Of a DNA stretch of 64,000 nt, positions 579 through 60,714 are shown piece after piece; position 1 is the stretch's first letter; every line of letters starts with the position of its first letter. The stretch comes from Arsenophonus sp. NC-CH8-MAG3. GTDB lineage: Bacteria; Pseudomonadota; Gammaproteobacteria; Enterobacterales; Enterobacteriaceae. The DNA is taken from contig JBQMRO010000009.1 in the NCBI GenBank assembly GCA_052174475.1, forward strand, positions 2,915 through 66,914, written 5' to 3'. The notes below the pieces were generated by a model, which was given only the letters and a program-made list of their open reading frames with translations, was not told where the DNA came from and did no database searches. Made by a program: the position numbers and the translations under genes.

Positions 579-905
579 ATGACGATCATTTTTAATGAAT
601 CAATTTAGATTTGATGTTGTTAAAGGTCAATATGAATGTTAGCTCATTTTCAGTCGTGCTGATATGGTGTTATATTCTTTTCCATATTTATGGAACCCAA
701 TTTCGGATATTTAGTGAGAATGCTAAAGCTTTAGATCCTTCACCCAACGACAATAGTGAAAAATACTGCGTGAATTAATGCTAATGTTAATAAGGGATAT
801 AAAGTTTAATCATGTAGAACTCAAGAATATCCTTATATGATAGCATTGTCATTTGTTAGAATACGAATGACAAATAGTATGATGATAAGTTTTTCTCTGT
901 TAGCT
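579..905 (+). pseudogene. cueO: Multicopper oxidase CueO, 3' remnant
   Basis: Fragments read KGQYE, IYGTQFRI.SEN, YMIAHCHLLE, matching the CueO C-terminus; stops and frameshifts; cut by IS256 A. Confidence 0.75.
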
Positions 906-1016
906 AAGATGTTAGTTATTTTATTAATATTATTGATTATTATTGAATAATAGCATTTTATAGCATTTTTATTATGCTTATGTTAGAAGCTATTGTTTTC
1001 ACTTTCATTAATGTGA

Positions 1017-1565
1017 ATGCCTAAAGTTATGAAACAAATTGTAGAAGTCATGATCTCAGAGGCGGATATTAAGCAACGTATTGATGAGATGGCAAAAGAA
1101 ATTGTTAAACATTATAAATTATTGCAAGATGAGTTGCTCTTGGTTGGCCTTTTAAAAGGCTCTTTTATGTTTATGGCTGATTTATGTCGTAATATTAATA
1201 TCCCCCATGAAGTTGATTTCATGATGGTATCAAGTTATGGCAAAGGGATAACTTCAAGTCGCGATATAAAAATTATTAAGGATTTGGATGAAGATATTCA
1301 CGGTAAGCATGTTTTGATTGTTGAAGATATTATTGATTCTGGTAATACACTTAAAAAAGTCCGTGAAATTCTAAAATTACGTGGTCCTAAATCTATTGCT
1401 ATTTGTACTTTATTAAATAAAGCGTCCAGACGTGAAGTAGAGGTTCCTGTTGAATGGATTGGTTATGCTATTCAAGATGAATTTGTTGTTGGTTATGGTA
1501 TCGACTATGCACAACAATATCGCCATTTACCTTATATCGGGCATATTATTTTACTAGATGATTAA
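1017..1565 (+). CDS. hpt: Hypoxanthine phosphoribosyltransferase
   Basis: PRT motif [30 protein letters not shown]; start may be 1029. Confidence 0.97.
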
Positions 1566-2192
1566 TAATCAGTACTATTATTTATAAATAGGTAAAATCA
1601 AACGTTAGTTCAATTTTTTATCGTATTTATTTTTCTGCTTTAATTTAATAATAATTTGTCGATAACTAATTTAAAGCAGTTGATAACTATTAGTAGTAAT
1701 AGTATATTCATTGCTCTACTATGAGGGCAATGATATGGATTATGACGTTTTGACTGTATTGTCAAACAGATGACTGTATGGTCAAATACAAAGATTATAA
1801 ACTTCATCAATGATGAAGAAGTGCACATAAATTATTTTTCTGTTCTGCCGGAGTCAGAACAGTTAAATTAAGCTATGTGTAGATAACACACCACTCATAT
1901 ATAAGTAGTGTGTTGTTAATTATACCTTCAGTATTGTTAAGTTACAGCTTCAATACAATCACAATCATAGTGGCTATAAATAATAAAGTATTTAAATTTA
2001 GTGCATTAACAGTATGTCTGATAATAAATTGATAATTTAAGTCAGTATGAATTATAAAATTAACGACATTTTAATGGACAAAAAATCGTCTGGCGCTGCT
2101 TAATTAATTTTGACTGAAACACAGTTGTCACAGAACAGGGATATCTATAGAAACTATAGATTTTAAAAGTTTTTGATTCTTTAAAAGAAAGA

Positions 2193-3616
2193 AGTTATTA
2201 CTAAATTTAGTATATGTCTCCATCAGGTTACGTTCCACTCTGATGCTTCATTAATTTATTTTCCACTTTTAAATTAGATATTGTTACCACCAAAGTTATC
2301 AGATTAAATCCCGTTTAATTAATTATAGCTTTTCTGAGAAGAAAAGAGCAGCTTTAATACCATTAAAAGGGTTGTTTTTCTTGAACTACAGCGATTCGTG
2401 TTTCGGATTCGTATCCTCACTGTTGTAAAAGCCGATTTAATTAGATTCATCGTTCTTATTAACGATGGGATGGGATGGGATGGAGAGCCCCACATAGAGT
2501 AGACTGATAGAAAATCATAAAAATGCTAGCTATTTTCTCGATTATTTTCTAGCTTCTTCATTATTGTAGGGATAAAGCTTTGCTGAAAATTTTATCAACA
2601 AACATTAAGATTTATTAGCGACATCAGACTCCATGATAGGGTCTACTCCTCTCAGATAACCCTTAATTTTCAGTGCTGCATGATTTTATGAAGTCAACCA
2701 AGTTAATTAGATATTTTATGTATCCAATAGCAATGATGTTGGATATCCTGGGACATTTTTATCATTATATTCTAAAACCAAAGTACTATCTTCCATAACA
2801 AGCTCAGGAAGTATAGTTAAGACACACCGCTCGCGCGGTCATCCAGAAGTTCGACCAGTATGCTTACTACTTTTAGTAGTATCTTCAACCCCAATCAACT
2901 CATTATGTTCATGTTCAGTTATGCCAATAATTACTAGCAGGCCACGCGATCATTTTGCTTGATAGCATAGTGTATATGCCATCAGAACAGAAATAAATTT
3001 AGTAGTATCGCTTAAAATCACACAGGCATCATTATTACCTATGCTCTTTAAGTCATTTGTTTTTCAGTTTGCTTATGGCGCTTAGCAAAAGCCATGTGTT
3101 TTTCATCGAGAAGCGGCATCATAGCTTAGTGAAAATAATCAGTGGATAATGCCTTGCAGATACAGGTCATGGTAGCAACTCTTAAACATTTTATGGATGC
3201 TTTAGATAGAGCGACAAAAGGAGATGTTGAAGTATATTCCGTTACCGCTGAAGAATTTATAACCTTAGTATTTTAATATCAATATCACCTACACTTGTCT
3301 TTATAGATTCCTTATGATGAATAACCATTATGGATGATGGCATAATATGGTCGTCTACAAAAAGCAATGTTGAGCATTTTAGTACAGTATACTTTCAAGT
3401 TCAGCTTAAATAACGGTGCCTATCAGCTTCCCTAGTAGCATTACGAATAAGTTCATAGAATGGATTAGAGTGTAATAACTGGTTTCATGAATACCTCTAG
3501 GGTAGACTTTCATGGCATATTATTTTTATATTGTTGAGATCAATCATCTATAAAATTAATCAGAAGAATACGCCTTCTTCTCCCGAAGGTATATAGATCA
3601 GAAATAAGTATAACTA
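2193..3616 (-). mobile_element. IS256-family relic B, full length about 1.42 kb
   Basis: Ends AAGTTATTACTAAATTTAG and rc of CAGAAATAAGTATAACT; degenerate flanking duplication aagaaaga/aaaaagga; transposase motifs eroded. Confidence 0.9.
2464..2483. repeat. (GATGG)x4 microsatellite inside IS256 B
   Basis: Read directly; absent from homologous positions of other copies. Confidence 0.9.
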
Positions 3617-3828
3617 AAAAAGGATTTTCTTTAGTTACCGATTCTAAGTGCTGTATATTGTTTTTTCAAACAGTTCTTTAAGTTTTTATCATAATTCACG
3701 TGGATTAGTTATATTTAACTGCGATAATAATCATATAGAACATCAATTTAATTTTAATTTAATTAAAAATACTACTAATGATGTAACATATTCTTATATG
3801 TGGAATAAAATAGATAAGAAAGGTTTTT

Positions 3829-58728: not shown

Positions 58729-58729
58729 T

Positions 58730-59186
58730 TTATTATTCCATAATTCTTAAAGGTTGTAGCAGTCCTAACGCAGGAAGTTCATCGGAAAAGTCATCTAACA
58801 TGTAATCTTGTTTACTATAATAGTAAAGATTCAGTATAGTTATATCCATAAGTTTAAAACTATACAAGGACAACCTGAAACTTTAACAGCTAAGATATCA
58901 TTATGAGAATTACCGATAAATAATAGTTAATCTATATCTAGGGTAATTTTCCTTTTGTAGGAAATAGAATAATGAGCTAGATTAAGGGCTTTTGTTTTAC
59001 GTTATCGCTCCCTAATTTTAAAAAAATTGGAAGTTAATGATTAATTTTAATAAAGGGGTAATAAATGTTGTTAGATGGTTGACAAAGGTTATTTGGCTAC
59101 TTCTGTTAATCTGATAGGTACAGTTGATTAATTGTACGGTACAATCTAAATCAAATATGATAGCTTAATGCTAGCCATTTTTTTAA
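58730..59186 (-). pseudogene. gph: Phosphoglycolate phosphatase remnant
   Basis: FIGNSHNDILA...GCP, YGYNY, LPALGL; between rpe and trpS. Confidence 0.85.
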
Positions 59187-59863
59187 ATAGCATCAGTTAT
59201 CTTAGCTAACTTTTTACGCATAGCATTAATAACAGTTTTATAATCTGGTTGATTAAAAATTGCAGAGCCAGCGACAAAAGTATCTGCACCTGCATTTGCA
59301 ACATTAATAATATTATTAATGTTAACTCCACCATCAACTTCTAAACGAATATTATAACCGTTATAATCGATCATTTTACGAACTTGACGTAATTTATTTA
59401 GGGTTTGTGGAATAAAAGACTGTCCACCAAAGCCAGGAATTACTGACATGATTAAGATCATATCCAATTTATCTATCACGTATTCTAAATAGTTTAATGG
59501 TGTAGCAGGATTAAAAGCCAAACCAGCTTTACATCCGTTATCTTTAATTAATTCTAATGTGCGATCAATATGCTCACATGCTTCAGCATGAAAGGTGATA
59601 TAGGTTGCACCAACTTTAGCAAAGTCAGGAATTAATTGATTTACTTGGTTTACCATTAAATGCACATCAATTGGTACCTTAATACCGTAATCTCGCAATG
59701 CTTTACATATCATTGGGCCGAAAGTTAAGTTCGGAACATAATGATTATCCATGACATCAAAATGGATAATATCAGCGCCAGCTTTAATAACTTTCTTGAT
59801 ATCTTCACCTAAATATGCAAAATTTGCGGATAAAATAGAGGGGGCAATCAAAAAATTTTTCAT
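59183..59863 (-). CDS. rpe: Ribulose-phosphate 3-epimerase
   Basis: [25 protein letters not shown]. Confidence 0.98.
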
Positions 59864-59879
59864 TATTGTCTCCGATTTG

Positions 59880-60714
59880 TTTTTGTCTTTTATGTTTTTT
59901 ATCAGTTGGATTATAAAATTTTAAAAGTTTATTGACTTCTCTACGAGAGAGACTATTACGACTAATTGTTCTACGTACTAACAACATTTAGCTTAGCATG
60001 ATGATAACATTCTGTGCTCGCTGGTATATCATGATTTGATATTAATACGGATATTCCATGTGTTGATGATAAATAATAAGCGATTTGAACAGATTGTATT
60101 GTTCTTTGTTACAAAAATTATTTATACTATATGCGGTAAAATTATCCGCATCAGAGATCGATGTATAAGGTGGATCGCAGTAAACAATACCACTTTTGTT
60201 TGTTGATAGTAATGTTTCTTGATAGGTTTGGCAGAAAAATTGCTTTTTATGCTTTTTTATTAAACTAATAAAATTCATGTTCAAGAAAATAAGGTTTATT
60301 ATAAAGCCTAATGGAACGTTAAATTCCCATTTTTAATTGTAACGACAAAGACCATTATAGTAATGATGATTAAGATATGAAAATAATTCACTATGGACTT
60401 TAGAATTATTACGTAAGTTAAATTCTCTACGTAAACTATAATATTACTCAGCTTTATTTAACTCATTGTTAAATAAGTTAACATGAATGCTGCATAAATA
60501 TATCAATATTATATTTTACGGTATTATTTAGATTAATAAGATCATTATTAATGTCAGCTAGGATATAAGCGTTATAGTTAGTATTCAAAAATACTGAATC
60601 TGCTTTGATAAATAGTTCTATTAGACAATTACCTTTTGCTAGATATTTTTTAACTTATTCTGCTAGAATAAGTTTACCGCTAGCCTTTTTTAAAAAAGCG
60701 CGTTTTTTCTTCAT
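59880..60714 (-). pseudogene. dam: DNA adenine methyltransferase
   Basis: MKKKRAFLK.A.GK at 60714; YCDPPY and NFTAY in a 3' fragment; multiple stops; damX-dam-rpe order. Confidence 0.92.

What the first reader, a model, noticed from the sequence alone, without database searches (positions are those of the whole stretch)
600..60700. Pervasive palindrome-perfecting mutagenesis in non-functional DNA
Seen: perfect stems of 25, 17, 15 and 14 bp plus many of 8-12 bp (46642, 40643, 37749, 37588, 18159, 39340, 42121, 39997, 40076, 8045, 60685). Several lie over alignable pseudogene motifs where one arm keeps the ancestral codons and the other is rewritten as its complement. My rough estimate: at about 70% AT a random pair matches with p about 0.29, so a perfect 14-bp stem with loop up to 6 nt is expected about 0.01 times in 64 kb. 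Established: template switching at quasi-palindromes perfects inverted repeats in E. coli and is normally suppressed by mismatch repair and ssDNA exonucleases. Inference: this process is a major, little-described route of sequence erosion in this symbiont. An alternative is selection for hairpins that silence dead operons.
Basis: partly seen in the sequence, partly recalled or inferred. Interest (0 to 1): 0.8.

Follow-up and report, generated by a model that had tools for sequence, protein, structure and literature searches.

The report
Template-switch hairpins littering dead symbiont DNA
In this decaying Arsenophonus insect-symbiont genome, dead genes and dead insertion sequences hold about ten times more perfect short hairpins than chance allows, and the changes that made them look like replication template switching at near-palindromes, a known mutation process that is unusually easy to see here but accounts for only a few percent of the decay.

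Summary
The window has 84/18/4 perfect hairpins with stems of at least 8/10/14 bp (loop up to 8 nt). Shuffles give about 23/2/0.02. The whole 2.34-Mb genome has the same density.

The hairpins are single-copy, AT-rich and lack T-runs. They lie in pseudogene DNA, not after genes. Where a relative (G007) still has intact genes and this genome does not, I counted 34 hairpins here against 2 there.

148 dead copies of one insertion sequence (IS) give a clean test. Stems of at least 10 bp number 33, against 3.5 expected if sites mutate independently. Stems of at least 12 bp number 14 against 0.2. The IS consensus has none of 9 bp or more. Derived changes cluster on one arm, sometimes as inverted-copy insertions. 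Comparison with a sister genome adds loop inversions and compensatory pairs. Over 90% of the hairpins are lineage-specific.

This fits quasi-palindrome template-switch mutagenesis. ExoI, RecJ, ExoX, MutS/L/H, Dam, SbcCD and RecA are dead or undetected; ExoVII is intact.

The process is not a major route of erosion, because footprints cover a few percent of positions while about 30% are changed. A causal role for the lost repair genes is unproven, because the repair-proficient relative also shows a 4-fold excess.

The parts
46642..46691 (.). Spacerless 50-bp perfect palindrome (25+25), AT-rich
   Evidence: Sister genome G001 lacks 13-14 nt of the left arm and differs mostly on that arm (13 left-only, 2 right-only differences).
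40643..40679 (.). 17-bp perfect stem with 3-nt loop inside the dead nuo operon
   Evidence: It is absent from the intact orthologues, and both arms differ from them (7 differences on the left arm, 5 on the right against G007). This is not a clean one-arm case.
37749..37780 (.). 15-bp perfect stem with 2-nt loop in the dead nuo operon; the clearest one-arm conversion
   Evidence: The left arm is identical to G005/G007. The right arm carries 5 clustered changes, and every one completes a base pair. Ancestral complementarity was 10/15. The stem is also perfect in G001 and partly kept in G006, so the event predates their split.
37588..37621 (.). 14-bp perfect stem with 6-nt loop in the dead nuo operon
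   Evidence: About 8 nt of the right arm are an insertion relative to five intact relatives. G001 and G006 hold imperfect intermediate versions.
36299..36325 (.). 13-bp AT-only stem with 1-nt loop
   Evidence: 1 difference on the left arm and 6 on the right against G007. G001 has one mismatch and a 3-nt indel.
35285..35314 (.). 13-bp stem with 4-nt loop
   Evidence: In the BLAST alignment G001 differs by a compensatory pair, G-C to T-A. The MAFFT alignment places these differences differently, so this case is alignment-dependent.
16802..16826 (.). 12+1+12 palindrome about 400 nt upstream of the groEL ORF (14759-16390, minus strand)
   Evidence: It is not perfect in G001, which differs on both arms, so it is specific to this lineage.
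17638..17658 (.). 10-bp stem with 1-nt loop
   Evidence: All 4 differences from G001 lie on the left arm, including 3 indel columns.
18159..18185 (.). 11-bp stem with 5-nt loop
42121..42143 (.). 11-bp stem with 1-nt loop in the nuo relic
   Evidence: It is absent from intact relatives.
8324..8348 (.). 11-bp stem with 3-nt loop
   Evidence: G001 and G006 share states that differ from this genome on the left arm, so those changes are derived here.
34754..34782 (.). 11-bp AT-only stem with 7-nt loop, upstream of the nuo relic
39341..39369 (.).
   Evidence: Read directly from the sequence.
39997..40026 (.).
   Evidence: Read directly from the sequence.
59300..59323 (.). 12+12 spacerless palindrome inside the intact ORF 59183-59863; the only stem of >=10 bp in the window that lies in a long ORF
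   Evidence: It is identical in G001.
60685..60698 (.). 7+7 palindrome inside the dam pseudogene
59907..60714 (-). dam pseudogene (Dam methylase, which directs MutH)
   Evidence: tblastn with E. coli Dam matches C9:62821-63628 in two pieces with 5 in-frame stops. The neighbouring damX and the ORFs on either side are open.
34420..42540 (+). Relic of the nuo operon (NADH dehydrogenase I); holds 6 of the window's 18 stems of >=10 bp
   Evidence: The orthologous G007 region has open nuoA, B, CD, E, F, G and H genes (Pfam). The window has almost no ORF of >=100 codons here; the only one is 40174-40578 on the minus strand.

Best explanation
The hairpins are footprints of quasi-palindrome template-switch mutagenesis (the Ripley model). 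During DNA synthesis the nascent strand briefly copies the other arm of an imperfect inverted repeat, either on itself or across the fork. One arm is thereby rewritten as the exact complement of the other. The result can be a multi-base substitution, a templated insertion or a loop inversion.

In this Arsenophonus genome about 69% of the DNA lies outside ORFs of >=100 codons (dead genes, roughly 200 dead IS copies and intergenic DNA). Such events are therefore not removed by selection. They accumulate, then decay by ordinary point mutation, giving a fast turnover of lineage-specific perfect hairpins.

Shown here:
- the excess over chance;
- its confinement to DNA that has lost its reading frame;
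- its absence from intact orthologues;
- correlated and one-arm-biased derived changes;
- templated insertions, loop inversions and compensatory pairs;
- lack of conservation between sister genomes.

Inferred, not shown:
- that the events occur at the replication fork;
- that loss of ExoI, RecJ, ExoX, mismatch repair, SbcCD and RecA has raised their rate. The data allow at most a roughly 2-2.5-fold boost over a repair-proficient relative.

The process is a minor contributor to decay, at a few percent of positions at most.
For: 1. Excess. There are 18 stems of >=10 bp in the window against about 2 in shuffles, and 610 genome-wide. Inverted repeats outnumber mirror repeats 3.7 to 1.

2. They arise after gene death. 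In 77.9 kb where G007 has a long ORF and this genome has none, there are 34 hairpins (>=10 bp) here and 2 in G007. In 173.6 kb where both keep ORFs, the counts are 8 and 8.

3. IS natural experiment. 148 dead copies of one IS total 210 kb. Stems >=10 bp number 33, against 3.5 in a null that permutes each alignment column and so keeps the ancestor and every site's mutation profile. Stems >=12 bp number 14 against 0.2. The consensus has no stem of >=9 bp. Collapsed to distinct sites, the counts are 22 against 3.3 and 11 against 0.3.

4. One-arm bias of derived changes. In the IS relics, 22 of 61 hairpins have all one-sided changes on a single arm, against 5.6 expected. After collapsing to sites it is 7 of 29 against 1.4, P=1e-4. 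The same overdispersion appears against sister genome G001: 653 against 365 +/- 55, and reciprocally 592 against 331.

5. Templated insertions. One example is a 12-nt left arm absent from the IS consensus that is the exact reverse complement of the right arm. Others are at C10:90838 and in window hairpins 37588 and 46642.

6. Loop inversions. There are five between G000 and G001, and none in the mirror or complement controls.

7. Compensatory pairs. 39 of 85 pairs that changed on both sides are complementary in both species.

8. A sharp peak at perfection. For 12-pair windows, observed/null is 80 at 12/12, 3.0 at 11/12, 1.9 at 10/12 and 1.2 at 9/12.

9. Turnover. Only 10 of 115 hairpins (G000) and 10 of 104 (G001) are perfect in both genomes. 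Arm divergence (0.20) equals flank divergence (0.20).

10. Repair genes. sbcB is a stop-riddled relic in G000, G001 and G006 only, and open in 14 other relatives. mutS is absent from this clade. recJ is a relic. mutL and dam are pseudogenes, and mutH, exoX, sbcC, sbcD and recA give no hit. [quoted passage not shown]
Against: - With a single distant outgroup (G007, about 28% divergence) the one-arm bias is weak: P=0.08 for pseudogene hairpins.
- The three-way polarised set has only 34 hairpins and is not significant (P=0.16).
- Many hairpins have changes on both arms, 40643 among them. This requires several events or earlier changes that were later copied across.
- A strict scan found few clusters of differences fully explained by a reverse-complement copy: 9 hits in about 15,000 clusters, which are 5 loci, all loop inversions. 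Exact inverted-copy indels were also few: 5 of 221, against 1 mirror and 0 complement control hits.
- ExoVII is intact.
- G007, with intact ExoI and MutS, still has a 3.9-fold excess in deep non-coding DNA, against 8-10-fold here. Repair loss is therefore not required.
- The strongest IS 'hotspot' (consensus position about 917, 11 copies) could be a variant inherited from a source element rather than recurrent events. Those copies show no extra similarity elsewhere, which does not exclude this.
Confidence: 0.8

Rival explanations
1. The mutational mechanism is the same, but it has nothing to do with the lost repair genes. Template switching perfects inverted repeats at a similar rate per point mutation in all Enterobacterales. 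This genome shows it only because two thirds of its DNA is free of selection.
For: Repair-proficient G007 has a 3.9-fold excess in deep non-coding DNA, and 2-4-fold excesses occur inside long ORFs in all three genomes. Perfect inverted repeats are over-abundant in E. coli K-12 and are attributed there to template switching (PMC5941160). ExoVII, the backup for ExoI, is intact.
Against: At similar GC (0.30-0.32), density in deep non-coding DNA is about twice that of G007: 31-33 against 16.7 per 100 kb, and the observed/expected ratio is 8-10 against 3.9. The three genomes with dead ExoI also lack MutS, and recJ is a relic in two of them and undetected in the third; G000 and G001 show the high density, while the 53-kb G006 sample shows a weaker excess. 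The comparison is confounded by the age of the neutral DNA and by the terminators of short genes in G007.
Confidence: 0.45
2. The hairpins are selected structures, such as intrinsic terminators or other elements that silence transcription of dead operons. They would be built and kept by selection on point mutations.
For: They are abundant in dead operons such as nuo. A few are identical in G000 and G001: 6 of 115 have identical stems against 1.8 expected. Compensatory pairs exist.
Against: - No T-run enrichment after the stems: a mean of 3.80 T in 8 nt against 3.55 at shifted controls, and 8.4% against 7.1% with >=6 T.
- Stems are AT-rich (24% GC).
- 35% have loops of 0-2 nt.
- 16 of the window's 18 lie more than 100 nt from any ORF end. 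In intact relatives, most hairpins outside ORFs sit within about 60 nt after an ORF end and carry A/T runs.
- More than 90% are not shared with the sister genome, and arms diverge as fast as flanks.
- They arise at scattered sites in individual dead IS copies.
Confidence: 0.04
3. The arms are homogenised by a repair or recombination reaction on extruded hairpins or cruciforms, for example mismatch correction within the stem or intrastrand gene conversion, rather than by a polymerase template switch.
For: The sequence outcomes would be the same: one arm converted to the other, loop inversion and compensatory pairs. Sequence data alone cannot separate the two.
Against: MutS, MutL, MutH, Dam and RecA are dead or undetected, which removes the obvious conversion machinery. 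De novo templated insertions of 7-12 nt fit copying better than correction. The rewritten arm shows no leading- or lagging-strand bias (12 against 9), which does not discriminate.
Confidence: 0.08
4. The hairpins are an artefact or a repeat family: chance in AT-rich DNA, assembly or amplification chimeras, or a dispersed palindromic element of the REP or MITE type.
For: The genome is a 102-contig draft at 32% GC. AT-rich DNA has more chance palindromes.
Against: The shuffle, mirror-repeat and column-permutation nulls are all exceeded 4- to 80-fold. 197 of 198 hairpins of >=12 bp are single-copy. The independently assembled sister genome G001 has the same density, and some hairpins are shared. 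Rfam finds nothing in the window.
Confidence: 0.02

Closest known systems
Quasi-palindrome-associated template-switch mutagenesis in E. coli (Ripley 1982; thyA hotspot of Dutra & Lovett 2006; lacZ QP5/QP6 reporters of Seier 2011; ExoI/ExoVII suppression, Laranjo 2017; as cited in PMC7202029 and bioRxiv 10.1101/2020.10.27.357855)
   Same: Imperfect inverted repeats become perfect through concerted multi-base changes templated by the other arm. The process is RecA-independent in outcome. The main suppressor in E. coli, ExoI, is dead here.
   Different: Here the process is seen as thousands of fixed evolutionary footprints, not as reporter reversions. ExoVII is retained. Rates were not measured. 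Some events create arms by insertion of 7-14 nt.
Over-abundance and conservation of perfect short inverted repeats in Proteobacteria (Lavi et al. 2018, PMC5941160)
   Same: A genome-wide excess of perfect inverted repeats over simulated nulls, explained by preferential correction of imperfect repeats through template switching.
   Different: That study found perfect repeats more conserved than expected in functional genomes. Here more than 90% are lineage-specific and lie in dead DNA, which shows creation and decay rather than conservation. The 148 IS relics provide replicated evolution from a known ancestor, which that study lacked.
Short-range template-switch mutations in eukaryotes and RNA genes (Loytynoja and co-workers, PMC8794818, PMC7954356; yeast inverted-repeat homogenisation and spacer inversion, PMC8604942)
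   Same: One event can create a perfect stem, fix the pairing of an existing stem (giving apparent compensatory changes) or invert the loop. All three outcomes are seen here.
   Different: The setting here is bacterial symbiont pseudogenes, with no RNA function involved. My strict scan recovered only the loop-inversion class cleanly, because the sister genomes are about 20% diverged.
Intrinsic (Rho-independent) terminators
   Same: A short inverted repeat with a small loop in non-coding DNA.
   Different: These have no T-run, AT-rich stems, positions inside dead genes far from ORF ends, and no conservation.

Membership tests
Quasi-palindrome template-switch mutation footprints | The changes are concerted: several sites change together so that complementarity rises | tested here: met
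   Against a column-permutation null that keeps the ancestor and per-site mutation profiles, stems >=10 bp number 33 against 3.5 and stems >=12 bp number 14 against 0.2. Counted as distinct sites these are 22 against 3.3 and 11 against 0.3.
Quasi-palindrome template-switch mutation footprints | One arm acts as template and stays ancestral; the other arm is rewritten | tested here: met
   In the IS relics, 22 of 61 hairpins have all one-sided changes on one arm against 5.6 expected. After collapsing to sites the count is 7 of 29 against 1.4, P=1e-4. Against G001, P<1e-4. The signal is weak with the distant outgroup alone (P=0.08). Many individual hairpins have changes on both arms.
Quasi-palindrome template-switch mutation footprints | An imperfect inverted repeat was already present at the site in the ancestor | tested here: inconclusive
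   44% of stem pairs (300 of 685) are complementary in the IS consensus, and 37749 was 10/15 in intact relatives. However, a perfect stem with about 30% diverged arms gives roughly this value automatically. Some arms are pure insertions with no precursor.
Quasi-palindrome template-switch mutation footprints | Templated indels and loop (spacer) inversion occur as alternative outcomes | tested here: met
   Inverted-copy insertions of 7-12 nt are seen. Five of 221 indels are exact inverted copies, against 1 mirror and 0 complement control hits. Five loop inversions are found against 0 in the mirror and complement controls.
Quasi-palindrome template-switch mutation footprints | The events arise during replication and are suppressed by the 3' ssDNA exonucleases ExoI and ExoVII | not testable with these tools
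   Gene content only. sbcB is dead in G000, G001 and G006. xseA and xseB are intact. A relative with intact ExoI shows a smaller but real excess.
Intrinsic terminators | G+C-rich stem followed by a T-run, placed just after a gene | tested here: not met
   Stem GC is 0.24. There is no T-run enrichment. 16 of 18 hairpins in the window lie more than 100 nt from any long-ORF end, whereas most non-ORF hairpins in intact relatives lie within about 60 nt.
Dispersed palindromic repeat elements (REP, MITE, RPE-like) | Many copies of a similar sequence | tested here: not met
   197 of 198 hairpins of >=12 bp occur once in the genome. The top 39 sequences are all different.

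The most novel reading that the evidence does not exclude
The combined loss of ExoI, RecJ, ExoX, mismatch repair, SbcCD and RecA in this Arsenophonus clade has released template switching. If so, it would be a quantitatively important, clade-specific force in genome decay that creates knock-out mutations, new stems and small inversions at a rate well above that of repair-proficient relatives. 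The roughly 200 IS relics would then serve as a natural mutation-accumulation array for measuring the in vivo template-switch spectrum of a defined multi-exonuclease-deficient genotype.
Probability: 0.3. Interest if true: 0.7.

Novelty: new member of a known kind. Interest (0 to 1): 0.5.

Why it matters
Template switching at quasi-palindromes is well studied with E. coli reporters and has been inferred statistically in functional genomes. It is rarely seen free of selection in bacteria, because bacteria have so little neutral DNA.

This genome offers about 1.6 Mb of DNA outside long ORFs, most of it apparently unconstrained. It also holds 148 or more independent decaying copies of one IS with a recoverable ancestor. 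Creation, direction, indel spectrum, loop inversion and decay of template-switch hairpins can therefore be counted directly.

The result also carries a practical warning. In degenerate genomes, perfect hairpins, compensatory changes and clustered substitutions need not indicate function or selection.

Whether the loss of ExoI, RecJ, ExoX and mismatch repair raises the rate can be tested with existing E. coli reporters. I found no paper in the searched library that reports this for symbiont pseudogenes.

Tried and rejected
- Arm-asymmetry test using only the distant intact relative G007: weak (P=0.08), because about 28% divergence adds noise on both arms.
- Three-way polarisation (G000, G001, G007): only 34 hairpins were covered, and the result was not significant (P=0.16).
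- Strict scan for clusters of differences explained by an exact reverse-complement copy in the sister genome: 9 hits in about 15,000 clusters. They are 5 loci, all loop inversions. The test is too strict at 20% divergence to estimate event numbers.
- Exact inverted-copy test on indels of >=5 nt: 5 of 221, against 1 mirror and 0 complement control hits. The class is real but small.
- Leading- or lagging-strand bias of the rewritten arm, using GC skew: 12 against 9, no signal.
- IS hotspot at consensus position about 917 as evidence of recurrent events: not relied on, because it may be a variant inherited from a source element. All IS statistics were repeated after collapsing to distinct sites and after removing this site.
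- Cross-genome correlation of hairpin excess with exonuclease content in the very AT-rich small genomes (G004, G008, G011): uninformative, because chance expectation is high at 18-22% GC.
- Rfam scan of the window: no family found.

Full report
**What the window is**

The window is C9:2915-66914 of a 2.34-Mb, 102-contig genome with 32% GC. Only 20 ORFs of >=100 aa occur in 64 kb. ORFs of >=100 codons cover 28% of the window. The open genes are housekeeping genes: groEL, dnaB, alr, pcnB, epmB, aroB, damX and trpS.

A protein-based scan names the relatives as Arsenophonus. The closest named records are the metagenome-assembled genomes NC-TX2-MAG3, EOPcoel-MAG3 and NC-WZS1-MAG3; the last is handle G006. 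G005 is Candidatus Arsenophonus nilaparvatae.

Handle G001 is collinear with the whole window at about 83% nucleotide identity. Window 34.4-42.5 kb is a dead nuo operon. The orthologous stretch of G007 has open nuoA, B, CD, E, F, G and H.

**Checking the observation**

Two of them (39340 and 39997) have 11-12-nt loops.

Perfect stems with loops up to 8 nt, compared with dinucleotide-preserving shuffles in blocks of 200 to 64,000 nt:

| Stem length | Window | Shuffles |
|---|---|---|
| >=8 bp | 84 | 19-25 |
| >=10 bp | 18 | about 2 |
| >=12 bp | 8 | 0.1-0.2 |
| >=14 bp | 4 | 0-0.02 |

- The window is typical of the genome, which has 2874, 610, 198 and 83 such hairpins, with stems up to 43 bp.
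- Mirror repeats have the same chance expectation and are 3.7 times rarer at >=10 bp.
- 197 of 198 hairpins of >=12 bp are single-copy, so this is not a repeat family.
- Rfam finds nothing in the window.

**Where the hairpins lie**

- DNA outside long ORFs makes up 69% of the genome. It carries 34.7 hairpins (>=10 bp) per 100 kb, against 7.1 inside long ORFs. For stems >=14 bp the counts are 82 against 1.
- In the intact relatives G007 and G005, most hairpins outside ORFs sit within about 60 nt after an ORF end and carry A/T runs. They are ordinary bidirectional terminators.
- In the window, 16 of 18 lie from more than 100 to several thousand nt from any long-ORF end.
- Genome-wide, the hairpins show no T-run enrichment: 3.80 T in 8 nt against 3.55 at shifted control positions. 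Stem GC is 0.24.

**Comparison with intact orthologues**

I fetched 916 kb of G007 contig C2 and aligned it to this genome; 317 kb aligned. Hairpins of >=10 bp in the aligned DNA:

| Compartment | Aligned bases | This genome | G007 |
|---|---|---|---|
| G007 has a long ORF, this genome has none | 77.9 kb | 34 | 2 |
| Both keep long ORFs | 173.6 kb | 8 | 8 |

The stems are therefore not inherited from the functional genes. They appear after gene death.

For individual hairpins in the nuo relic:
- 37749: the left arm is identical to the intact relatives, and 5 clustered right-arm changes each complete a pair. Ancestral complementarity was 10/15. The stem is shared with G001.
- 37588: about 8 nt of the right arm are an insertion.
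- 40643: both arms differ from the intact orthologues.

**Comparison with the sister genome**

467 kb of G001 contig C4 align collinearly with contigs C49, C9, C10 and C29.

- This genome has 115 non-ORF hairpins of >=10 bp in that DNA, and G001 has 104. Only 10 are perfect in both.
- Arm divergence (0.20) equals flank divergence (0.20). Most hairpins are therefore lineage-specific and unconstrained.
- Differences between the species are over-dispersed towards one arm: 653 against 365 +/- 55, and reciprocally 592 against 331 +/- 52.
- Several arms are insertions that are inverted copies of the other arm (C10:90838, C10:63101).
- 39 of 85 pairs changed on both sides are complementary in both species.
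- Five small inversions of hairpin loops were found (for example CCT against AGG at C29:51109), with none in the mirror or complement controls.

**The IS natural experiment**

One IS family has about 200 relics in the genome. I aligned 148 copies totalling 210 kb. They are about 30% diverged from a consensus that has a visibly higher GC content than the copies.

I permuted each alignment column among copies. This null keeps the ancestor and every site's own mutation profile but breaks within-copy correlations.

| Stem length | Observed | Column-permuted null |
|---|---|---|
| >=8 bp | 159 | 41 |
| >=10 bp | 33 | 3.5 |
| >=12 bp | 14 | 0.2 |

- The consensus itself has no stem of >=9 bp.
- With the consensus as ancestor, derived changes are strongly one-armed. 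22 of 61 hairpins have all one-sided changes on one arm, against 5.6 expected. For hairpins with >=5 such changes it is 11 of 36 against 1.3.
- Clear cases include a 12-nt left arm that is absent from the consensus and is the exact reverse complement of the right arm.
- One apparent hotspot (consensus position about 917, 11 copies) may be an inherited variant. Its carriers are no more similar to each other elsewhere.
- I therefore repeated everything after collapsing to distinct sites. Stems >=10 bp give 22 sites against 3.3, and >=12 bp give 11 against 0.3. The one-arm test gives 7 of 29 against 1.4, P=1e-4. Results were the same without that site.

**How much of the decay this explains**

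For 12-pair windows in the IS relics, observed/null is 80 at 12/12, 3.0 at 11/12, 1.9 at 10/12, 1.2 at 9/12 and 1.1 at 8/12. This is the pattern of perfect stems being created and then decaying.

- The summed excess is about 300 sites of 24 nt, or roughly 3.5% of IS DNA.
- The 67 perfect stems of >=9 bp cover about 0.7% of IS DNA.
- By contrast, about 30% of positions differ from the consensus.
- These are rough figures. They show that template switching is a visible but minor contributor, not a major route of erosion.

**Repair genes**

Status in this genome, from tblastn with E. coli K-12 proteins taken from NC_000913.3 and from family searches:

| Status | Genes |
|---|---|
| No hit | mutS, mutH, exoX, sbcC, sbcD, recA, recX |
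| Pseudogene with many stops | mutL, dam (window 59907-60714), recJ, sbcB (ExoI) |
| Open | xseA, xseB, recB, recD, and uvrD over residues 1-651 |

- sbcB is a relic only in G000, G001 and G006, and is open in 14 other relatives.
- mutS is absent from the same three genomes and from three of the smaller, very AT-rich genomes, G004, G010 and G011.
- recJ is a relic in G000 and G001.
- ExoI is the main suppressor of quasi-palindrome mutagenesis in E. coli (bioRxiv 10.1101/2020.10.27.357855), so the gene content fits.
- The link is only correlative. In deep non-coding DNA of similar GC, G007 (intact ExoI and MutS) has 16.7 hairpins per 100 kb, 3.9 times shuffle. This genome and G001 have 31-33 per 100 kb, 8-10 times shuffle. 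The age of the neutral DNA and the terminators of short genes confound that comparison.

**Conclusion**

- The selection/terminator alternative fails every test I could run.
- The mechanism is a known one (Ripley; Lovett; PMC5941160; PMC8794818; PMC8604942).
- What is new is the setting and the clarity of the evidence, especially the IS-relic replicates.
- I found no report of this for symbiont pseudogenes in the library.

Noticed in passing
window 5727-7640 (minus strand): pcnB (poly(A) polymerase) and folK form one uninterrupted 637-aa ORF here, and also in G001 and G006. In G007, G002 and G012 they are two separate frames, so this looks like a clade-specific gene fusion.
   Followed up: partly
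window 59907-60714 (minus strand): dam is a pseudogene with 5 in-frame stops, lying between the open damX and the open ORF at 59183-59863. That ORF sits where rpe lies in E. coli; its identity was not tested.
   Followed up: partly
genome-wide; window copies at about 10680-11980, 19434-20790, 31050-32190, 44330-45260, 53000-54360 and 56710-57500: About 200 relics of one IS of about 1.4 kb make up roughly 11% of the genome. Each is about 30% diverged from a consensus that has a visibly higher GC content than the copies, which are close to the genome's AT-rich composition (neither value was computed). Pairwise identity among copies is about 64-68% with no detected subfamily structure, which suggests one old burst followed by AT-biased decay.
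   Followed up: partly
genome G000 (C10, C61, C16): recA and recX give no hit, while recB, recD, xseA and xseB stay open. A second, stop-riddled recB-like copy lies next to recD on C61.
   Followed up: no
window 16802-16826: A 12+1+12 perfect palindrome lies about 400 nt upstream of the groEL ORF, presumably in the groES-groEL leader or promoter region. G001 differs at several positions on both arms, so the palindrome is specific to this lineage and may affect chaperonin expression.
   Followed up: partly
window 59300-59323: A 24-bp spacerless palindrome lies inside an intact ORF and is identical in G001. It is the only stem of >=10 bp in the window within a long ORF.
   Followed up: no
relative G011 (G011:C1:600001-700000, L040-L044): This 2.03-Mb single-contig Arsenophonus genome has only 17.6% GC and about 33% of the sampled DNA in long ORFs. 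That is unusually large for so AT-rich a genome. It keeps ExoI but lacks xseA, mutS and recJ.
   Followed up: no
G000 C58:54717-54806: The longest hairpin in the genome is a 43-bp perfect stem with a 4-nt loop. SbcCD is absent, which may be why such palindromes persist.
   Followed up: no
relative G007: No recJ match was found in G007, although ExoI, MutS and XseA are intact there. This matters when G007 is used as the 'repair-proficient' control.
   Followed up: no
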